From positions 1 through 46,613 of the IMG/VR virus record IMGVR_UViG_2565956710_000003: 46,613 bases of DNA, one strand, 5' to 3'. How positions within the stretch are numbered: the stretch's first letter is position 1; each line of letters starts with the position of its first letter. A program made the position numbers and the translations under genes. The stretch comes from a virus. Its lineage: Duplodnaviria > Heunggongvirae > Uroviricota > Caudoviricetes. This document shows positions 1,419 through 39,662 of the stretch, one piece after another. The notes under the pieces are model-generated. The model did no database searches. It was not told where the DNA came from and saw only the letters and a program-made list of their open reading frames with translations.

Positions 1419-2489
1419 TTATTTGATTTCAATTTTGTCCCACTCCCTGCCTCTGTCATCACGATACTGTGATGCCATGGTGTCCGACTTATGCCCGAGA
1501 AGATGTTGAGCAAACTTATCGCTTATCTGCTTCTCATAGAGTCTTGCAGACAAACTGCGCAACTCGTGAAAGGTAGGCGGATCCCCTTCGAAGGAAAGAC
1601 CTGATGCTTTTCGTGCGCGCATAAAATACCTTGATACTGTGCCGGATGAAAGCGGTTCACGACGAGTAGATGCAATTATGGTTTCTCCGCCAAGAATCTC
1701 TTTGCATTTATCAAGTGTTTCCTTCATTGATATCCCGAGAGCATCAACATGCAATGTTGTAGGGATGGCAATTTTTACACCTGTTTTGCTTTGCTCGACA
1801 TAAAGATATCCATCTACGATATCAGACCACTTCATTTCGCATAAATCACCAACTCGCTGCCCGGTAACAACAGCCAGTTCCATTGCAAGTCTGAGCCAAC
1901 ATGGTGATGATTCTGCTGCTTGATAAATTTTCAGGTATTCGTCAGCCGTAAGTCTTGATCTCCTTACCTCTGATTTTGCAGCGCGAGTGGCAGCGACCGG
2001 GTTTATTGTTATATGGCCTTCAGCTATTGCCTCTCGGAATGCATCGCTCAGTGTTGATCTGATTAACTTGGCTGACGCCGCCTTGCCCTCGTCTATGTAT
2101 CCATTGAGCATTGCCGCAATTTCTTTTGTAGTGATGTCTTCAAGTGGAGCATCAGGCAGCCCCCTCCTTATTGCTTTAATTTTGCTCATATAATTTATGA
2201 GTGTCTTCTGCTTGATTCCTCTGCTGGCGAGGATTTTTTCGTAGCGATCAAGCCATGAATGTAACGTAACAGAATTATCACTGTTGATTCTCGCTGTCAG
2301 AGGCTTGTGTTTGTGTCCTGAAAATAACTCAATGTTGGCCTGTATTGCTTCAGTGATTGCTATCCTCCTGTCTCGGCCTAATCCAAACTCTTTACCCGTC
2401 CTTGGGTCCCTGTAGCAGTAATATCCATTGTTTCTTATATAAAGATTAGGGGGTAAATCCCGGCGCTCATGACTTCGCCTTCTTCCCAT
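1419..2489 (-). CDS. int: Lambda-type tyrosine integrase
   Basis: 356-aa ORF beginning MGRRRSHERRDLPPNLYIRNNGYYCYRDPRTGKEF, essentially lambda Int; adjacent to attL. Confidence 0.95.
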   Translation of the reverse strand: MGRRRSHERRDLPPNLYIRNNGYYCYRDPRTGKEFGLGRDRRIAITEAIQANIELFSGHKHKPLTARINSDNSVTLHSWLDRYEKILASRGIKQKTLINYMSKIKAIRRGLPDAPLEDITTKEIAAMLNGYIDEGKAASAKLIRSTLSDAFREAIAEGHITINPVAATRAAKSEVRRSRLTADEYLKIYQAAESSPCWLRLAMELAVVTGQRVGDLCEMKWSDIVDGYLYVEQSKTGVKIAIPTTLHVDALGISMKETLDKCKEILGGETIIASTRREPLSSGTVSRYFMRARKASGLSFEGDPPTFHELRSLSARLYEKQISDKFAQHLLGHKSDTMASQYRDDRGREWDKIEIK

Positions 2490-2685
2490 TTTTGATCCTC
2501 TTCAAAAGGCTACCTGTTACTGGTCGATTTAAGTCAACCTTTACCGCTGATTCGTGGAACAAATACTCTCTTCCGTCCTTAACCGGTGGTGGGAATATCC
2601 TGCACTCGCGTACCCATCGACGAACTGTTTCAAGGCTTCTTGGGCGTCGCTGGCGTGCGTTCCACTCCTGAAGTGTCAAGTACAT
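2467..2685 (-). CDS. xis: Excisionase
   Basis: 72-aa ORF MYLTLQEWNARQRRPRSLETVRRWVRECRIFPPP, lambda Xis; overlaps the int start as in lambda. Confidence 0.95.
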   Translation of the reverse strand: MYLTLQEWNARQRRPRSLETVRRWVRECRIFPPPVKDGREYLFHESAVKVDLNRPVTGSLLKRIKNGKKAKS

Positions 2686-2790
2686 CGCAAAGTCTCCGCA
2701 ATTACACGCAAGAAAAGCCGCATTGATGCGGCGATGGTAGGTCTGGATATCTTGAGAAATGAACAGGCCTCATCGAGTGTGAGGCTGTGG

Positions 2791-3135
2791 TTAGTCCTTG
2801 CGTAGCTCGCTGATTCTTCTGTAAGTCTCTGGTGCTTTGTTTCCGTGTATCTTCATTTCAGACTTCAACAGAGCAACGAGAGAATCCCATTCGTTGAGGA
2901 TGCCTTTGAATGCCGGAACGCGCTTTGCAACCTTGTCGAATGAATCTCTGATTTCTGGAATCTGCTCAACAAGTGCAACGCATCGCCGAAAGTCTGCTGC
3001 GTCATGGGGAGCGCCGAAGTGATGACCATAGATATTCTTTTTCAGGCCACATGCGATTGAGGCAAGAGTTGCGCTACTGATTCCGACATCGCCAGTTGAT
3101 TGCCATTTCAAAACCTTCATAGCCAAATCTGACAT
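2791..3135 (-). CDS. Hypothetical protein (early-left accessory region)
   Basis: 114-aa ORF with a GGAGA Shine-Dalgarno 6 nt upstream of the ATG; same strand as the pL operon. Confidence 0.55.
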   Translation of the reverse strand: MSDLAMKVLKWQSTGDVGISSATLASIACGLKKNIYGHHFGAPHDAADFRRCVALVEQIPEIRDSFDKVAKRVPAFKGILNEWDSLVALLKSEMKIHGNKAPETYRRISELRKD

Positions 3136-3207
3136 TTCTTGTCTCCATAAAACAAAACCCGCCGTAGCGAGTTCAGATAAAAGAAATCCCCGCGAGTGCG
3201 AGGATTA

Positions 3208-3492
3208 TCATTCATTGCCGATATTTACCTTTATCGCGTATACCTTTACCGGTTTATCGCCGAAGTGGGGATGCGTGATTGTCTTGATTTCATATCCGTC
3301 ATAAGGGACGTCAATTCTGCGGCTGGAATCGTCGCGCTTCGGGTATCCCTTTGTGATAATCAGGCGGTCATACTCGCGTAACATAATTCGCTTATTCCAG
3401 TAGTCATTACACAGGCGATACTCTTCCGTTTTCTCTCCACGAATCATGGCATCGAAGTATTCACCTTTGACGGCAAGTTGCAGGTTAGTCAC
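3208..3492 (-). CDS. Hypothetical protein
   Basis: 94-aa ORF with a GTG start preceded by AGGAGG at 6-nt spacing; the longer ATG-start ORF would overlap the upstream gene by 46 nt. Confidence 0.5.
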   Translation of the reverse strand: MTNLQLAVKGEYFDAMIRGEKTEEYRLCNDYWNKRIMLREYDRLIITKGYPKRDDSSRRIDVPYDGYEIKTITHPHFGDKPVKVYAIKVNIGNE

Positions 3493-13142: not shown

Positions 13143-16527
<3,385 letters not shown>

Positions 16528-34693: not shown

Positions 34694-36037
34694 ATGGCTA
34701 CGTGGCAACAGGGTATTAATTCTGGTGGTTTTCTGGCTGGCATTGGTGCGCAAAACGAGAATGCGCCAAAGGCAAGCGACATTAATGCAACGCTTGGTCT
34801 GATCCGCGAAAACAATGAACTTGCTCGCTCAGGTGTAAATAACGTTGGCCTGACCGCGTTACGTGGTCTGGCTGGAGTTGCTGATATTTACAATCAGGAA
34901 CAGCAACAGAAAGCTATTAGTGCGTTCAATAAGGTTCACGCTGATGCATGGGCTTCTGGTGATCCATCGGGACTATTTAAGTTTGCCCAGGAAAATCCAG
35001 CGTTTGTTGCGCAGGCACAACAGGCGTTTTCCGGTCTTAATGAGCAGCAACGCAACGATATGGGCGATTTAGCCATGAGGGCTAACGTCGCTCTTTCTCA
35101 GGGACCGGAAGCCTACAGTAAATTCATTACTGACAACAAGGACAGGTTAAATCGCGTGGGTGCTAATGCTGACTGGATGATTCAGACAGGTATCCAGAAT
35201 CCAGAGCAGCTATCACACATGCTGACTACTATGTCTCTCGGTGCGCTTGGACCAGAAAAGGCGTTTGCTGTTCAGGATAAGATGGTTGGTCGCCAACTTG
35301 AGAAAGGGCGATTGGATGAAAGCATCCGTCAGGCTGACATGGAGAATGCGAGAGGATGGGCAAATATCCAGAACGCTCAACTAGACAGGGCTCAGCGGGC
35401 ACAAATGCACTCAGATGAGATGGGATTGAAGCTAATGGAGCTGGGGCAAAAAGGTAAGCCGTCAGCAGACTTAATTAAGGGATTAAATTCTGACATTACC
35501 AATTTTGGCAAAAATTATAACTCTGTCAGAGCGGCGGCAAACTCTCTGCAAGCCCTTAGCAAGGTAAATACTGGCGCTGCCCAACTTGGGATTATCTTTA
35601 ATTACATGAAGTCTCTCGACCCTCAGTCAGTTGTTCGCGAAGGTGAACAGGTTCAGGTCATGCGCTCTGATGGCATATGGGGGCAGATAAAAGGATATGT
35701 AGACCAGCTTAATGCAGGGAATGGCTTGTCACAGGAAGCGAGGGATAACATTGTTAACGCAGCAAAAATTAACGCCAACGCTATGGGGCAGCAGTTTAAC
35801 CAGCAGGTAGACGAATATCTGGATACGTATGGAGATACTATTCCTCAGGGGCTGAAAAAAAGCTTAGGGAGAAGGAAGGCCAAGCTATTTGACGATGTCC
35901 CAGCGCAGCCTACACCACAAGGTGGTAATGGGCAGACAAAAGCTGCGCCAAGTGGGATATCAGAAGGCGCGACGGCAACGAACCCTAAAACTGGTCAGAA
36001 ACTCATTTACAGGAACGGACAATGGCAACCGATGTAG
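34694..36037 (+). CDS. Ejection protein (P22 gp20-like)
   Basis: 447-aa ORF, second of the three ejection-protein genes by position. Confidence 0.6.
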
Positions 36038-38145
36038 GTTTACCCGAAGGCTTTGTTCTCGATAATCAGCCTGATAACTCACAGCTTCCTGATGGTTTTG
36101 TGCTTGATGCCCAACCAGAACAGCAGCAATCACCTTTGGTTTCGCCAGAGGAAAATTCCAGACAGGAAAATGTTGTTAATAATGCTAACGGTTTCGACCG
36201 TTTTATGTATGGCGTTCTCAGTGGATTGATGGATGTTGGTAAAGGTGTTGGCCTGTTTCAGGATATGACACCAGAAGAGCAAGCCGCAATTCAGTCTCTA
36301 CAGCAGAAGTTAGCGGCAAAACCATCAACCGCACAAGATGTTGGTGAGTTTGTTGGACAAGCAGCGCCATTTGTTAGTGGTGGTGGGATTATTTCTCAGG
36401 TTCCGAAAGGGGCGGCAAGGCTGGCTGCCGCCGCAGGGCTTGGTGCTGGAGAAGGGGCTATTGTAGCCAATGGAACAAATAGCGATGTTGCTTCTGGAGC
36501 TGCTATTGGCGCTGTGGCTGGCCCTGTAGCAGAGATTGTTGGTCCAGCGCTTGGGAAGATTGCAGGAAAAATTAAAAATAGTGCCGGAGATATTTATCGC
36601 TCATCCGTAGGGATGGGTAGTAAATCATCTAAAGCAACGTTAAAGAAAGCTGCTGGCGCAATGGACAATAAATTTATCGGCGGGCAACGAGCTATTCAAG
36701 ATTTCGCCGATGAAGTTAATCCTGATTTTAACGCGATAAATGCTATTCGTGAGCTAGAACTGGAAAATTATGCCACTCCAGGCATGATCTCTAATAATCC
36801 TGCTGTCAGGGCTCTTGATAATGCAGTGGCAAGTCTCCCTGGAACAGAGATTAGTGAGGCGCATAAGCGTTTTATTACTGAATTAGGAAGAAAAGCTGAT
36901 GAAATGATAACTTCATTTGGGGGAAGCCTTGATAAGCAACTGGTTTCTGACAGGCTTGCAGATAATTTTGATAAAACCATTTCATCATTACAAAATCAGT
37001 CAGATAACATCTACAACAAAATTGCCGAAAAGGTTCCTGTAAGAGACCGGATTGAGGCAACTAATACATTGAATTTTTTAGAGGATTTTGCTGATGATAT
37101 AGGTGGAATTGATGAATTATCTCCAATAATGAAGCGGACATTGAACCGACTTGATCCAAACACCTTGCCAACGTATGGGCGTTTAGATCTCGCTAGAAAG
37201 CAGGTTGGGCAAGCTATTGGCAAAGGCTCTGGCCCATTCAAGGATGAAGAAACAGGTGTTCTTAAAAAGTTATATGCAGCTATAACAGATGACCAACAGG
37301 CTGTCGCAGAAAAATATGGCGCAGGGGAGTTATGGACGCTTGGTAAGGAGTTGGTAAAAAAACGAAAATCCATTGAAGATGATGCCGTAACCGTTTTGGG
37401 TAGAAAACTTCAGCAATCAGCAATTCCAAAAGTTGAAAGTGCCGTTGTTAATATGGCAAAAGGAAACGGTGGTGACTTTAGGCAATTAATGAAGTCAATT
37501 CCAAAGGATATGCGGCAGGAAGTTGCGCTCACTTCAATGAATAAAGCATTTACCAGCTATGCTAAATCACCAGGTCAGCAATTAGGGGTTGATGGATTTG
37601 TAAAATGGTATAACGGAATGTCACGCAATGGGGCCAATATGAAGGCTCTCCGTGATGCTATTGGCACAGATGCATCAAAGCGCCTTGATACGATTTATCA
37701 AGCAGCCAAGGCTATGAATAGACTCAATACTGGTAAGCAGTATGCTAGCAGCCTTGTGGATCAGCAAGTTAATAACTTTCTGAAAGAAAAGGGTAGTCTC
37801 GCAAAAATTTATGGAATAGCCTCAAAAGCTGCTGCGGCGGAAGGTATTACAAGCTTATCTGGTCTTCCTGGTGTAGGTGCAACAGGGGTGATAACGTCAG
37901 CATTGATGTCAGGGAAAACAAGCAGGATAAAGGCTGCTGATGCTCTACTGTCTTCTCCTGAGTTTAAATCAATGCTATTTCGCCTGCAAAACGCACCAGT
38001 AGACAGAGCAGAAGTGAGACGCGTAATAGAAAGGAAACTGATGCAATCTGGGGCATTTAAGAGATGGGAGAAAACCTTATCAACAGATGAAGCAAAAACC
38101 ATTGCCCGCACGGGGATTATTACATGGCTCGCTAGTGACAGTTAG
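36022..38145 (+). CDS. Ejection protein (P22 gp16-like)
   Basis: 707-aa ORF, last and largest of the ejection-protein genes. Confidence 0.6.
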
Positions 38146-38369
38146 TCAACTTTGGTTATTTTGCCTTCTTTTTCTTGATGAACTTTGCATCCATTATCTT
38201 TTGATAGCCAAACTAAAAACTTTAAAACCTTAAACACAAGTACGGCTACTGCAATGAAAGCACCAATTGCAATTATTGCTAGCGAAATTATTTGCATTGG
38301 TGCTTTTAATGCAGGGAAAATAGTGTAAATGATCGCGAAAACAGTAATTATGAGGAACCATCGCTTCAC
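38142..38369 (-). CDS. Small two-helix membrane protein (candidate exclusion-type accessory gene)
   Basis: 75-aa ORF with a GTG start preceded by AAGGAGG at 5-nt spacing; two hydrophobic segments; opposite strand to the virion operon. Confidence 0.45.
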   Translation of the reverse strand: MKRWFLIITVFAIIYTIFPALKAPMQIISLAIIAIGAFIAVAVLVFKVLKFLVWLSKDNGCKVHQEKEGKITKVD

Positions 38370-38399
38370 ACCAACCTCCTTAGTTTTGAGCAGGATACC

Positions 38400-38765
38400 A
38401 TGAAAAAAGTTAACATTGGAAACGTACCAAAAATGCTCGTTCCGCTCTTTGAGAGCGGTACAATTGTGTTTTGCAGAGACTTTCCAGAATGGCAACGCCT
38501 GCATCAAAAACTTGGCGTGGACGTGCAGGACTCGGATGCCAACGGAGCGTCTCATACAATGAGCAGCGAGAATGGTGTTTTGCATGTGATAGGTGTGTTC
38601 AATGGCAAACTATCTACTATTGCCCATGAGTGCGCTCACATGGCATTCGATATCTGCTCAAGGGTCGGCGTTGATGTTGAACCAGGAAGAGCCAACGAGA
38701 CTTACTGCTACTTAATGAGCAGGCTTGTTGAGTTCTGCGAGCGACATATCAAAAAGCCGGAGTGA
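38400..38765 (+). CDS. Small HExxH-motif protein (putative zinc metallopeptidase-like)
   Basis: 121-aa ORF containing IAHECAHMAFD with a downstream Glu; divergent from the membrane protein gene with only a 30-bp spacer. Confidence 0.5.
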   Translation: MKKVNIGNVPKMLVPLFESGTIVFCRDFPEWQRLHQKLGVDVQDSDANGASHTMSSENGVLHVIGVFNGKLSTIAHECAHMAFDICSRVGVDVEPGRANETYCYLMSRLVEFCERHIKKPE

Positions 38766-38778
38766 CCCGGCTTGATTA

Positions 38779-38958
38779 TTACTTTTTGCTGTCTGGAGTT
38801 CGCTTATCTAATACCCAGCCATGACCTGGCTTTGTTGTTGGCGGAAGCCTTTCGTTGTCCTTGACGGTGGCAAAATTGTCTTTCTTACCTCCGCGCGGGC
38901 CAACTTCTTGGTATATTCCGCCGTTTTTTCCTGTGTTTTCACCTGGTTTTTTCGCCAT
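38779..38958 (-). CDS. Small basic Gly-rich protein (conserved about 60-aa family, function unknown)
   Basis: 59-aa ORF MAKKPGENTGKNGGIYQEVGPRGGKKDNFATVKDNERLPPTTKPGHGWVLDKRTPDSKK with a GAGGT Shine-Dalgarno. Confidence 0.5.
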   Translation of the reverse strand: MAKKPGENTGKNGGIYQEVGPRGGKKDNFATVKDNERLPPTTKPGHGWVLDKRTPDSKK

Positions 38959-39044
38959 GATATACCTCAACATGCACCCGTTATTGGGCGATTAAATATT
39001 GATCTCATTTTATGAGTAGTCAATATGGTCCAAAAAAGGCAAAA

Positions 39045-39072
39045 ATTAACCCACCGTCAGGTGGTTTTTTTG
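39045..39072. terminator. Bidirectional rho-independent terminator
   Basis: Hairpin CCACC-GTCA-GGTGG flanked by an A-run upstream and TTTTTTT downstream; overlaps the 3' end of the Mnt-like gene. Confidence 0.6.
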
Positions 39073-39377
39073 TTTAGCAGTTCTCTCAACTTTTCGTTCT
39101 GCTCTCTGAACTTTTCCTGTATTTCTTTTTGCATGGCGATAACCTGGGCTTGAAGTTGAACTAGCGCATCAACATTTAGCGGAACCGAGACGCTGTTGAT
39201 TTTATCTGCTATTTCCCCGAGTGTATTTTCTGCATTCAAGGCATCTTCCAGTATCTGAACAATCTCTGAGTTCATTGATCTGCCGTTACGTTTGGCTCGT
39301 TCAGCTATAGCATCCCGCATTCCTGCAGGAAGCCTGATATTGAACCTATCCATTTCATGACTAGGGAACTTGCTCAT
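39057..39377 (-). CDS. mnt: Mnt-like ribbon-helix-helix repressor (copy 1)
   Basis: 106-aa ORF with RHH motif FNIRLPAGMRDAIAERAKRNGRSMNSEIVQILEDAL and a C-terminal coiled coil ending KKTT, as P22 Mnt does. Confidence 0.7.
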   Translation of the reverse strand: MSKFPSHEMDRFNIRLPAGMRDAIAERAKRNGRSMNSEIVQILEDALNAENTLGEIADKINSVSVPLNVDALVQLQAQVIAMQKEIQEKFREQNEKLRELLNKKTT

Positions 39378-39488
39378 ATGACCTCAACGTAAAGATGTTC
39401 GCTAAACAATAGCACCAACTTGACATCAAAATAAATGGTGTTAAATTGGTTCTAGAACCAAGTTGGTATCATTGTGGGAGGATTACTT
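39378..39488. promoter_or_regulatory. Divergent promoter/operator region between mnt and arc
   Basis: Palindrome GGTTCTAGAACC, flanking inverted repeat ACCAACTTG...CAAGTTGGT, and TTGACA-like hexamers. Confidence 0.6.
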
Positions 39489-39662
39489 ATGAAAGATGTG
39501 CTTTACACAGGTCGTAAAAGTCAAAGTTTCCAGCTTCGTTTGCCAGCGCGAATGAAGGAGGAGATTAGACGTGTTGCTGAAATGGATGGAATTTCTATCA
39601 ACTCTGCGATTGTGCAGCGACTGGCTAAAAGCCTGAGAGAGGAAAGAGCTAATGCCCAGTAA
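39489..39662 (+). CDS. arc: Arc-like ribbon-helix-helix repressor
   Basis: 57-aa ORF MKDVLYTGRKSQSFQLRLPARMKEEIRRVAEMDGISINSAIVQRLAKSL with GGAGG upstream. Confidence 0.7.
   Translation: MKDVLYTGRKSQSFQLRLPARMKEEIRRVAEMDGISINSAIVQRLAKSLREERANAQ

What the first reader, a model, noticed from the sequence alone, without database searches (positions are those of the whole stretch)
38142..39072. Three small accessory genes between the ejection-protein genes and mnt
Between the last ejection-protein gene and the first Mnt-like repressor, where P22 carries sieA and its immI neighbours, sit three small genes of mixed orientation. They are a 75-aa two-helix membrane protein (38142-38369, minus, GTG start with AAGGAGG), a divergently transcribed 121-aa protein with an HExxH motif (IAHECAHM, 38400-38765) only 30 bp away, and a 59-aa basic Gly-rich protein (38779-38958, minus). 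The tight divergent pairing of a membrane protein with a putative metallopeptidase-like protein could be an exclusion, toxin-immunity or regulatory pair. I cannot assign any of the three to a characterised system.
Basis: partly seen in the sequence, partly recalled or inferred. Interest (0 to 1): 0.6.

Follow-up and report, generated by a model that had tools for sequence, protein, structure and literature searches.

The report
Three unlinked accessory genes beside P22 mnt
The three small genes are real but are not a team: one is a swappable membrane-protein cassette in the slot where phage P22 keeps its exclusion gene sieA, and the other two are P22/HK620's own uncharacterised genes, a tiny zinc-protease-like protein (hkcC) and a YjzC-family protein (orf59a).

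Summary
All three ORFs exist as described. The window is an E. coli P22-like prophage.

- **Two of the three are P22's own genes.** Window 38367-39073 is 97.5% identical to phage P22. The HExxH ORF is HK620 hkcC, which is unannotated in P22. The 59-aa ORF is P22 orf59a (HK620 HkcD), a YjzC-family protein.
- **The 75-aa gene replaces sieA.** The replacement runs exactly from the shared GTG start codon leftwards. It keeps P22's ribosome-binding site and the putative PsieA region.
- **The sieA slot is a cassette site.** In 81 P22-like loci it holds 11 unrelated cassettes next to an almost invariant hkcC. All 11 begin with a transmembrane, signal or lipoprotein sequence.
- **The 75-aa gene does not depend on hkcC.** Its commonest allele lies in prophages with neither hkcC nor orf59a. 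It always overlaps the 3' end of the same 707-aa ejection-protein gene.
- **The proposed membrane-protein/metallopeptidase pair, and the trio, are therefore not units.**
- **hkcC is a real gene.** Variant codons are 29 synonymous to 4 non-synonymous. It belongs to a large family without a Pfam model (547 clusters) whose only invariant residues are H-E-x-x-H plus a Glu 20 residues later.
- **hkcC's more conserved partner is orf59a.** The two lie convergently in five other prophage contexts.

Functions are inferred, not shown: the 75-aa protein as a lysogen-expressed envelope or exclusion protein, and hkcC as a lytic-cycle zinc peptidase. Interest is modest.

The parts
36022..38145 (+). 707-aa ejection (DNA-transfer) protein gene, a gp16 analogue. 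It is the constant neighbour of the 75-aa gene.
   Evidence: Matches phrog_6704 over its full length and phrog_770 'DNA transfer protein'. It is 99-100% identical in every locus that carries the 75-aa gene. Its 3' end overlaps the 75-aa gene by 4 nt.
37921..37938 (-). Terminator-like hairpin on the minus strand, about 200 nt past the 75-aa stop codon and inside the gp16 coding region.
   Evidence: Consensus scan only. It implies that the 75-aa transcript may run antisense into the 3' end of gene 16.
38142..38369 (-). 75-aa two-helix membrane protein (phrog_7294), a cassette occupying the sieA slot.
   Evidence: ORF and ribosome-binding site. Hydropathy profile. Homology to P22 breaks exactly at the GTG start codon. 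The family is restricted to E. coli and Salmonella, with all members at least 84% identical. No similarity to SieA.
38370..38399 (.). 30-bp shared spacer. It carries the AAGGAGG ribosome-binding site (38374-38380, minus strand) for the slot gene and a weak AGGA for hkcC.
   Evidence: Identical to P22 apart from one base.
38400..38430 (-). Sequence equivalent to the putative PsieA promoter annotated in P22. It lies inside the first codons of hkcC.
   Evidence: P22 annotation AF527608 13861-13891. In P22, sieA with 85 bp of upstream sequence sufficed for exclusion (PMC10883804). The simple sigma-70 scan did not detect it.
38400..38765 (+). hkcC homologue: a 121-aa gluzincin-like protein. HECAH at nt 38625-38639 and E100 at nt 38697-38699.
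   Evidence: 100% amino-acid identity to the HK620 hkcC product and to the unannotated P22 ORF. Purifying selection. Invariant H/E/H/E. AF2 model with pLDDT 88.
38754..38773 (.). Bidirectional hairpin terminator (P22 't mnt', HK620 'tORF59A') between hkcC and orf59a.
38779..38958 (-). orf59a / HkcD homologue, a 59-aa YjzC-family protein.
   Evidence: 98% identical to P22 orf59a. Pfam YjzC 19.4 bits, below the cut-off of 25. Relatives are named YjzC or hit PF14168. AF2 model is a three-stranded sheet, pLDDT 87.5.
38995..39023 (-). Promoter-like site for orf59a: TTGACT, 17 nt, AATATT.
   Evidence: Consensus scan. Both hexamers are conserved upstream of orf59a homologues in Rosenbergiella, Xenorhabdus, Proteus, Morganella and Klebsiella.
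39051..39064 (.). Hairpin terminator at the 3' end of the Arc/Mnt-family gene. It separates that gene from orf59a.
39057..39377 (-). 106-aa Arc/Mnt-family repressor gene, the right-hand boundary of the region.
   Evidence: Pfam Arc, E = 1.6e-20.

Best explanation
The three ORFs are three independent modules of the accessory region that P22-like phages carry between the ejection-protein genes and mnt.

(1) The 75-aa gene is one of at least 11 interchangeable cassettes in the sieA slot.
- Each cassette is joined at the same start codon or ribosome-binding site to a conserved leader, and to the putative PsieA promoter that lies inside the 5' end of hkcC.
- Every cassette encodes a small protein with an N-terminal transmembrane, signal or lipoprotein sequence.
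- Inferred: the 75-aa protein is made in the lysogen, inserts in the inner membrane as a hairpin, and acts at the envelope. The most likely role is to hinder DNA entry by phages that carry the linked 707-aa ejection protein, as SieA does for P22.

(2) hkcC is a conserved gene on the late-operon strand.
- It encodes a cytoplasmic 121-aa minimal gluzincin-like protein with HExxH plus a Glu 20 residues later.
- Inferred: it is a zinc peptidase made during lytic growth. Its substrate is unknown.

(3) orf59a is a self-contained YjzC-family moron on the opposite strand, with its own promoter and terminator.
- Its function is unknown.
- It travels with one hkcC subclade between phage types.

The close spacing of the 75-aa gene and hkcC reflects a promoter embedded in a neighbouring gene, not a gene pair.
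For: Shown here.

Relationship to P22 and HK620:
- Window 38367-39073 is 97.5% identical to P22, and the breakpoint falls exactly at the GTG start codon.
- HK620 annotates the same layout: 16, hkcB, hkcC, bidirectional terminator, HkcD.

The sieA slot:
- 81 P22-like loci hold 11 unrelated slot cassettes, all with hydrophobic N-termini, beside an hkcC of 99-100% identity.
- The 75-aa gene always accompanies the 707-aa gp16 type (99-100% identity). This holds in 7 IMG/VR loci and in 7 further places that lack hkcC and orf59a.

hkcC:
- 29 synonymous versus 4 non-synonymous variant codons.
- 547 family clusters with E <= 1e-3.
- The only invariant columns in 106 members are H76, E77, H80 and E100.
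- AF2 model with pLDDT 88 and a strand-helix-strand sheet followed by two helices.
- The weak PDB sequence hits are mostly zinc metallopeptidases.
- Always co-oriented with flanking lytic genes.

orf59a:
- Its promoter is conserved across genera, with hairpin terminators on both sides.
- It lies convergent to hkcC in Rosenbergiella, Klebsiella, Xenorhabdus, Proteus, Pasteurellaceae and Morganella.

From the literature:
[quoted passage not shown] Escape mutations map to the C-terminal regions of gp16 and gp20. sieA with 85 bp of upstream sequence suffices for exclusion (PMC10883804).
Against: - No function was tested for any of the three genes.
- The 75-aa protein has no similarity to SieA and two rather than four or more helices.
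- Its variant codons are 5 synonymous to 15 non-synonymous, so constraint on the first transmembrane segment is weak.
- Its link to the 707-aa gp16 may be simple physical linkage.
- The PsieA promoter is only 'putative', and the simple sigma-70 scan did not find it.
- I could not inspect the geometry of the putative zinc site in the model.
- hkcC and orf59a each often occur without the other.
Confidence: 0.6

Rival explanations
1. The divergently transcribed 75-aa membrane protein and the HExxH protein, or all three genes, form one functional system such as toxin-immunity, exclusion with a partner, or a regulatory pair.
For: The two genes are only 30 bp apart and divergent. Seven IMG/VR loci carry the same trio.
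Against: - hkcC is paired with 11 unrelated cassettes.
- The commonest 75-aa allele, found in more than 1000 index blocks, lies downstream of mnt, a 92-aa gene and a 186-aa (in some places 125-aa) gene, with no hkcC or orf59a.
- The 30-bp gap holds a leader and ribosome-binding site shared with P22 sieA.
Confidence: 0.03
2. hkcC and orf59a are a functional two-gene mobile module. For example, a lytic-cycle protease cleaves or antagonises the lysogen-expressed YjzC-family protein, or both act on one host target in opposite life-cycle phases. Convergent transcription through a shared terminator would add mutual interference.
For: - The convergent pair, 5-30 bp apart, recurs in contexts other than the P22-type one. 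In Rosenbergiella, Klebsiella and Xenorhabdus it lies between tail-tube and tape-measure genes. In Proteus it lies in a tail-gene region beside an mnt/arc/ant cluster. In Pasteurellaceae it follows the replication genes.
- It also recurs in Morganella P22-like prophages.
- An hkcC remnant lies next to an orf59a homologue in L105 and L106.
- The orf59a promoter travels with the pair.
Against: - orf59a homologues occur alone in other prophages and mobile elements.
- hkcC paralogues at 38-48% identity, including phage L/ST64T orf129 and epsilon34 gene 70, lack orf59a.
- 11 of 80 P22-like loci have a 74-aa membrane protein in place of orf59a.
Confidence: 0.2
3. The 75-aa locus works mainly as an antisense RNA. 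A lysogen-made transcript runs from PsieA through the cassette into the 3' end of gene 16 and excludes related phages, as STnc6030 does in prophage BTP1. The ORF would be secondary.
For: - The 75-aa gene overlaps the gene 16 stop codon by 4 nt with no intervening terminator. The first minus-strand terminator-like hairpin is about 200 nt inside gene 16, at 37938-37921.
- BTP1 STnc6030 is antisense to the 3' end of the gene 16 homologue and confers self-exclusion (PMC7067206).
- The cassette is always linked to one gp16 type.
Against: - The ORF has a strong ribosome-binding site.
- The 14 undisputed full-length clusters all keep 75 codons.
- The C-terminal 33 residues are invariant apart from one site.
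- All other slot cassettes also encode envelope proteins.
- The terminator is only a consensus match.
Confidence: 0.1
4. HkcC is not a peptidase. The H-E-x-x-H...E residues bind a metal for a structural or regulatory role, or for another hydrolytic activity.
For: - No significant match to any peptidase fold or family.
- The protein has only 121 residues.
- Four Cys residues are invariant within the enterobacterial subclade.
Against: - The four residues invariant across 106 members at 23-44% identity are exactly the gluzincin catalytic set, with thermolysin-like spacing. The spacing comparison rests on my own knowledge of thermolysin.
- The Cys residues are not conserved family-wide.
- Two of 106 members reach SprT-like at E = 1e-4.
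Confidence: 0.2

Closest known systems
Phage P22 SieA (superinfection exclusion; types A, B and C), PMC10883804
   Same: Same slot between gene 16 and mnt/gene 9. Same strand, same GTG start codon, same ribosome-binding site and same upstream putative-PsieA region. Both are predicted inner-membrane proteins.
   Different: No sequence similarity. 75 aa with two helices, versus 164 aa or more with four or more helices. The FxRYPxEAxxFNK motif is absent. Exclusion was not tested.
Coliphage HK620 hkcB / hkcC / HkcD (AF335538, annotated 'unknown')
   Same: Identical architecture and orientation. The window's HExxH protein is 100% identical to HkcC, and the 59-aa gene corresponds to HkcD.
   Different: HK620 fills the slot with hkcB, a 109-aa transmembrane plus coiled-coil protein, rather than the 75-aa protein.
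BTP1 prophage STnc6030 antisense RNA (PMC7067206)
   Same: [quoted passage not shown] It is tied to exclusion of the phage's own type.
   Different: STnc6030 is reported as non-coding, with no ORF above 60 aa. Here there is a clear 75-codon ORF with a strong ribosome-binding site.
Gluzincin metallopeptidases (thermolysin-type HExxH...E) and archaeal minigluzincins
   Same: HExxH with a Glu 20 residues downstream. A mixed sheet followed by an 'active-site' helix and a 'glutamate' helix. The size of about 120 aa is close to that of minigluzincins. The comparison with these families rests on my own knowledge.
   Different: No significant fold or profile match. Minigluzincins use His as the third ligand (my own knowledge). 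Activity is unknown.
YjzC family (Pfam PF14168; Bacillus subtilis YjzC)
   Same: Length of about 60 aa and the G-x-Y-x-E-x-G...PPT pattern. UniRef names close relatives 'YjzC family protein', and distant relatives hit PF14168.
   Different: The window protein scores 19.4 bits, below the cut-off of 25. The family has no known function, so membership explains nothing mechanistically.
T4 Imm (PMC11436027) and, from my own knowledge, HK97 gp15
   Same: Small phage-encoded inner-membrane proteins that block DNA entry. HK97 gp15 is also a moron sited beside the genes of the DNA-delivery apparatus.
   Different: No sequence relationship was tested or expected. This is a functional analogy only.

Membership tests
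SieA superinfection-exclusion proteins (types A/B/C) | Gene lies in a P22-like prophage between the gene 16 and gene 9 homologues | tested here: met
   The 75-aa gene replaces sieA from the start codon onward.
SieA superinfection-exclusion proteins (types A/B/C) | Sequence similarity to SieA, including the FxRYPxEAxxFNK motif (PMC10883804) | tested here: not met
   BLASTP against P22 SieA gives E = 3.8. The motif is absent from the 75-aa sequence. Types B and C were not compared.
SieA superinfection-exclusion proteins (types A/B/C) | Multi-pass inner-membrane protein | tested here: inconclusive
   Two hydrophobic segments only. Localisation is not testable here.
SieA superinfection-exclusion proteins (types A/B/C) | Blocks DNA injection by P22-like phages | not testable with these tools
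   Requires plating and potassium-efflux assays.
Gluzincin zinc metallopeptidases | HExxH motif conserved across the family | tested here: met
   H76, E77 and H80 are invariant in 106 members at 23-44% identity.
Gluzincin zinc metallopeptidases | Glu as third zinc ligand on a following helix | tested here: met
   E100 is invariant, lies 20 residues after H80 and sits at the start of helix 100-117. Its role as a ligand is inferred.
Gluzincin zinc metallopeptidases | Zincin fold recognisable against solved structures | tested here: inconclusive
Gluzincin zinc metallopeptidases | Zinc-dependent proteolytic activity | not testable with these tools
   Requires biochemistry.
SprT-like (PF10263) and ImmA/IrrE (PF06114) phage-associated zincins | Score above the Pfam gathering threshold | tested here: not met
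   The window protein has no hit. Two of 106 relatives hit SprT-like, best E = 1e-4. There are no ImmA hits.
YjzC family (PF14168) | Score above the Pfam gathering threshold (25 bits) | tested here: inconclusive
   The window protein scores 19.4 bits, E = 1.3e-3. Homologues found with it carry PF14168 or the name 'YjzC family'.
Toxin-antitoxin or toxin-immunity gene pair (75-aa gene with the HExxH gene) | The two genes co-occur and are inherited together | tested here: not met
   hkcC occurs with 11 different partners. The 75-aa gene occurs without hkcC.
Moron (independently transcribed prophage accessory gene) | Own promoter and terminator, and orientation opposite to the flanking late genes | tested here: met
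   For orf59a: a promoter-like site at 39023-38995 that is conserved across genera, and a terminator at 38773-38754. These are predictions, not transcript data.

The most novel reading that the evidence does not exclude
The sieA slot of P22-like phages is a dedicated exchange site. At least 11 unrelated small envelope proteins, including the 75-aa protein, are plugged onto one fixed promoter, leader and start codon that lie partly inside the neighbouring hkcC gene. They would form a library of injection blockers, each inherited with, and possibly tuned to, a particular ejection-protein (gp16) type. In parallel, hkcC would define an unrecognised family of about 120-aa minimal gluzincin peptidases used by many phages during lytic growth, in one subclade as the antagonist of the YjzC-type prophage protein.
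Probability: 0.2. Interest if true: 0.65.

Novelty: new member of a known kind. Interest (0 to 1): 0.4.

Why it matters
- If the 75-aa protein and its ten slot-mates are exclusion factors, they give a natural panel of small proteins that interfere with the P22-type trans-envelope DNA conduit. Each comes linked to a known ejection-protein variant, so the still unclear SieA-gp16/gp20 interaction becomes testable by comparison.
- The hkcC family has 547 clusters, no Pfam model and an invariant HExxH...E. It is present in P22 itself but missing from the two P22 reference annotations examined (AF527608 and BK000583). It is a cheap target for assigning a function to a widespread phage 'hypothetical'.
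- For annotation, the result prevents these three genes from being filed as a new three-gene defence system.

Tried and rejected
- **P22 pid ORFan locus.** I considered whether the HExxH ORF was pid. It is not: pid lies between orf25 and orf80.
- **Second copy in the window.** One homologue, P0019, sits on a contig of 46613 bp, the same length as the window. tblastn found no second hkcC copy.
- **Domain fusions.** Ten longer family members had no Pfam domain.
- **Orf59a fold.** Foldseek against PDB gave nothing.
- **Literature.** Searches for hkcC, orf59a and YjzC found no functional work.
- **A correction of my own.** I first scored 19 loci as having an empty sieA slot. Seventeen of them carry a lipoprotein cassette with a slightly shifted start, and two carry hkcB with a 9-nt duplication.
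- **S.Kent 1-2-1 phage.** I fetched it to compare alleles, but it lacks the 75-aa gene.
Full report
**1. Observation**

- The 75-aa ORF (38142-38369, minus strand) starts with GTG, five bases after AAGGAGG. It has two hydrophobic segments (residues 4-20 and 26-46) and a Lys-rich tail.
- The 121-aa ORF (38400-38765, plus strand) starts 30 bp away. It carries H76-E-C-A-H80 at nt 38625-38639.
- The 59-aa ORF (38779-38958, minus strand) is basic and Gly-rich.
- The flanks are a 707-aa DNA-transfer protein gene (phrog_6704/phrog_770) and an Arc/Mnt-family gene.
- The window is an E. coli P22-like prophage, 99.9% identical to strain SBF22 and 99.2% to strain 55989 over this stretch.

**2. Two of the three genes are P22's own**

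- Window 38367-39073 is 97.5% identical to phage P22, AF527608 13828-14535.
- In that record sieA is at 13336-13830 (minus strand), the putative PsieA promoter at 13861-13891, the 't mnt' terminator at 14212-14234, orf59a at 14240-14419 (minus) and mnt at 14519-14770.
- The 59-aa ORF is therefore orf59a, at 98% amino-acid identity.
- The HExxH ORF exists in P22 at 100% amino-acid identity. It is unannotated in AF527608 and BK000583, where only the promoter and terminator are marked.
- The same ORF is annotated 'hkcC: unknown' in HK620.
- HK620 shows the same layout: 16, hkcB (minus), hkcC (plus), bidirectional terminator tORF59A, HkcD.
- Homology to P22 stops exactly at the GTG start codon of the minus-strand gene. 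The 75-aa gene thus replaces the sieA coding sequence from codon 2 onward. It keeps P22's ribosome-binding site, leader and the putative PsieA region, which lies in the first 31 nt of hkcC.
- Leavitt et al. showed that sieA with 85 bp of upstream sequence is sufficient for exclusion (PMC10883804).

**3. The trio is not a unit**

I fetched 80 IMG/VR loci (of 279 that matched) and 11 genome loci encoding hkcC relatives. I compared them by tblastn and by reading the slot.

In 81 P22-like loci (80 IMG/VR plus P22), hkcC is 99-100% identical at the protein level. The slot to its left holds 11 unrelated cassettes:

| Cassette | Loci |
|---|---|
| ~161-aa lipoprotein | 17 |
| SieA type A | 13 |
| 129-aa secreted protein | 11 |
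| 109-aa transmembrane plus coiled-coil protein | 10 |
| hkcB type | 8 |
| 75-aa protein | 7 (plus the window) |
| 106-aa protein | 5 |
| 62-aa protein | 4 |
| 68-aa protein | 2 |
| 99-aa protein | 2 |
| 149-aa protein | 2 |

- All 11 begin with a transmembrane, signal or lipobox sequence.
- All but the lipoprotein start at the same GTG, 31 nt from the hkcC ATG; in two hkcB loci a 9-nt duplication in the leader shifts this spacing. The lipoprotein's shared sequence begins at the ribosome-binding site.
- My first tally of 19 'empty' slots was wrong and is corrected.
- The slot to the right of hkcC also varies. In 11 of 80 loci a 74-aa two-helix protein replaces orf59a, immediately after the terminator.
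- The commonest allele of the 75-aa protein (P0038, listed in more than 1000 index blocks, from Salmonella and E. coli) lies in a different arrangement: mnt, a 92-aa gene, a 186-aa or 125-aa gene, then the 75-aa gene, all on one strand. Neither hkcC nor orf59a is present.
- In that arrangement the 75-aa gene still overlaps by 4 nt the end of a 707-aa gp16 that is 99.2% identical to the window's.
- The constant partner of the 75-aa gene is therefore the ejection-protein gene, not the HExxH gene.
- Each cassette type goes with essentially one gp16 C-terminal type, apart from single outlier loci for two types. The P22-type C-terminus hosts four cassette types. Linkage alone could explain this pattern.

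**4. hkcC**

It is a real, constrained gene.
- 37 nucleotide alleles give 29 synonymous and 4 non-synonymous variant codons. Window versus P22 gives 5 and 0.
- A word-indexed search found only 32 clusters. The exhaustive profile search found 547 clusters at E <= 1e-3, nearly all stand-alone proteins of 105-140 aa.
- In 106 members at 23-44% identity the only invariant columns are H76, E77, H80 and E100. This is the gluzincin set, with a thermolysin-like 20-residue spacing (the spacing comparison is my own knowledge).
- The four Cys residues that are invariant in the enterobacterial subclade are not conserved family-wide.
- AF2 gives pLDDT 88.3 with strands 11-13, 21-25, 49-56 and 59-66 and helices 28-37, 71-88 and 100-117. 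This topology is compatible with a zincin.

No known family is matched.
- Foldseek gives nothing below E 0.1; SPRTN scores E = 0.34.
- The PDB profile search gives only E = 0.1-0.8 hits, and nine of the 13 are zinc metallopeptidases.
- Pfam: two of 106 members hit SprT-like, best E = 1e-4.
- PADLOC has no hit, and the only NCBIfam and Pfam matches are sub-threshold ones to lantibiotic families.

Family members are co-oriented with lytic genes at varied sites.
- Between tail-tube and tape-measure genes.
- Between the lysis genes and terminase, as with phage L/ST64T orf129 and epsilon34 gene 70.
- After replication genes.
- In phages of 40-73 kb that infect Klebsiella, Pseudomonas and Aeromonas.

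I infer a cytoplasmic zinc peptidase made during lytic growth, read here from the late operon. There is no room for a promoter in the conserved 33 bp upstream. That the P22 late transcript crosses immI to reach gene 9 is established knowledge rather than something tested here.

**5. orf59a**

- 108 clusters, with the core G..Y.EVGPRGG...LPPT.
- UniRef names relatives 'YjzC family protein' and distant relatives hit PF14168. The window protein itself scores 19.4 bits against a cut-off of 25.
- AF2 gives a confident three-stranded sheet (pLDDT 87.5) with no PDB match.
- It looks like a self-contained moron. A promoter-like site (TTGACT, 17 nt, AATATT, at 39023-38995) has both hexamers conserved in five other genera. 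Hairpin terminators lie at 38773-38754 and, upstream after the mnt-like gene, at 39064-39051.
- It lies convergent to hkcC, 5-30 bp away, in Rosenbergiella, Klebsiella oxytoca, Xenorhabdus, Proteus, a Pasteurellaceae genome and Morganella. An hkcC remnant flanks it in L105 and L106.
- It also occurs alone.

**6. The 75-aa protein**

- The family is narrow: 21 clusters, all at least 84% identical, from E. coli and Salmonella only.
- It has no similarity to SieA.
- Variation is concentrated in the first transmembrane segment (5 synonymous versus 15 non-synonymous variant codons). The last 33 residues are invariant apart from N59, which is D in every other allele.
- Its position, shared expression signals and the uniform envelope targeting of all slot cassettes point to a lysogen-expressed envelope function. 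SieA-like interference with DNA entry is the leading candidate.
- SieA acts at the inner membrane, and escape mutations map to the C-terminal regions of gp16 and gp20.
- An RNA-level alternative has a precedent. BTP1's STnc6030 is antisense to the 3' end of the gene 16 homologue and excludes BTP1 itself (PMC7067206). Here the first minus-strand terminator-like hairpin after the cassette lies about 200 nt inside gene 16.

**7. Verdict**

The locus, the membrane protein and the metallopeptidase-like motif hold up. The proposed pair and trio do not.
- The gene arrangement has been annotated, without function, since the HK620 genome.
- What is new here: the fixed-start cassette slot with 11 envelope-protein fillers; the definition of hkcC as a large HExxH...E family without a Pfam model; and the recurrent hkcC-orf59a pairing.
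- All functions remain inferred.

Noticed in passing
window 38959-38990 (minus strand, 5' UTR of orf59a); alignment A6: A short hairpin in the orf59a leader, GC[CT]C-AATAxC-G[GA]G[CT], is kept through a compensatory change. The window has GCCC..GGGT, while Proteus and Morganella have GCTC..GAGC, and Xenorhabdus has GCTC..GAGT (a G-U pair).
   Followed up: partly
window 38995-39025: An inverted repeat, ATATTGA...TCAATAT, overlaps both hexamers of the orf59a promoter-like site and is retained in Rosenbergiella. It could be an operator, or simply AT-rich promoter symmetry.
   Followed up: no
L109-L115 (Salmonella and E. coli prophages), locus positions 1875-3228: An alternative operon-like arrangement: mnt (82 aa), a 92-aa gene, a 186-aa or 125-aa protein with a C-terminal transmembrane anchor, then the 75-aa gene. 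All lie on one strand and there is no hkcC or orf59a. This is the commonest setting of the 75-aa gene.
   Followed up: partly
window 38319-38369 (codons 1-17 of the 75-aa gene): Nine of about 14 nucleotide differences between the window allele and the common allele fall in the first 17 codons, and almost all change the amino acid. The adjacent gp16 is 99.2% identical. This suggests either a recombination joint inside the first transmembrane segment or diversifying selection.
   Followed up: partly
L008 6001-7014 (Kluyvera) and similar loci: An hkcC paralogue sits immediately upstream of a 212-aa PF18894 'putative phage metallopeptidase' (HELYH motif), between the Rz genes and the small terminase gene. 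That places two HExxH proteins in tandem.
   Followed up: partly
Phages Phi75, UAB_Phi20, ST160 and SE1: Some P22-like phages show two matches to the hkcC protein. In the two where the second match could be seen it lies under the annotated sieA gene, so it is probably a spurious hit. A separate 38-40% paralogue (orf129 type) does exist elsewhere in the genomes of phage L, ST64T and epsilon34.
   Followed up: no
window 39057-39377 and 39474-39662; a second Mnt-like gene about 2.3 kb further right: The immI-like region holds a 106-aa Arc-family protein with a long C-terminal coiled-coil-like extension, a divergent 62-aa Arc-like gene, and a further Mnt-like gene downstream (47% identical to P22 Mnt in the sister locus L020).
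   Followed up: no
protein P0019: A 63%-identical hkcC homologue is recorded on a JGI contig of 46613 bp, exactly the window's length. The window contains only one hkcC copy, so this looks like a coincidence.
   Followed up: partly
L003 10241-11854 (Klebsiella oxytoca prophage): A 537-aa SNIPE/T5orf172 protein and Arc-family genes lie just downstream of the tape-measure gene in the siphovirus-type prophage that carries the hkcC-orf59a pair.
   Followed up: no
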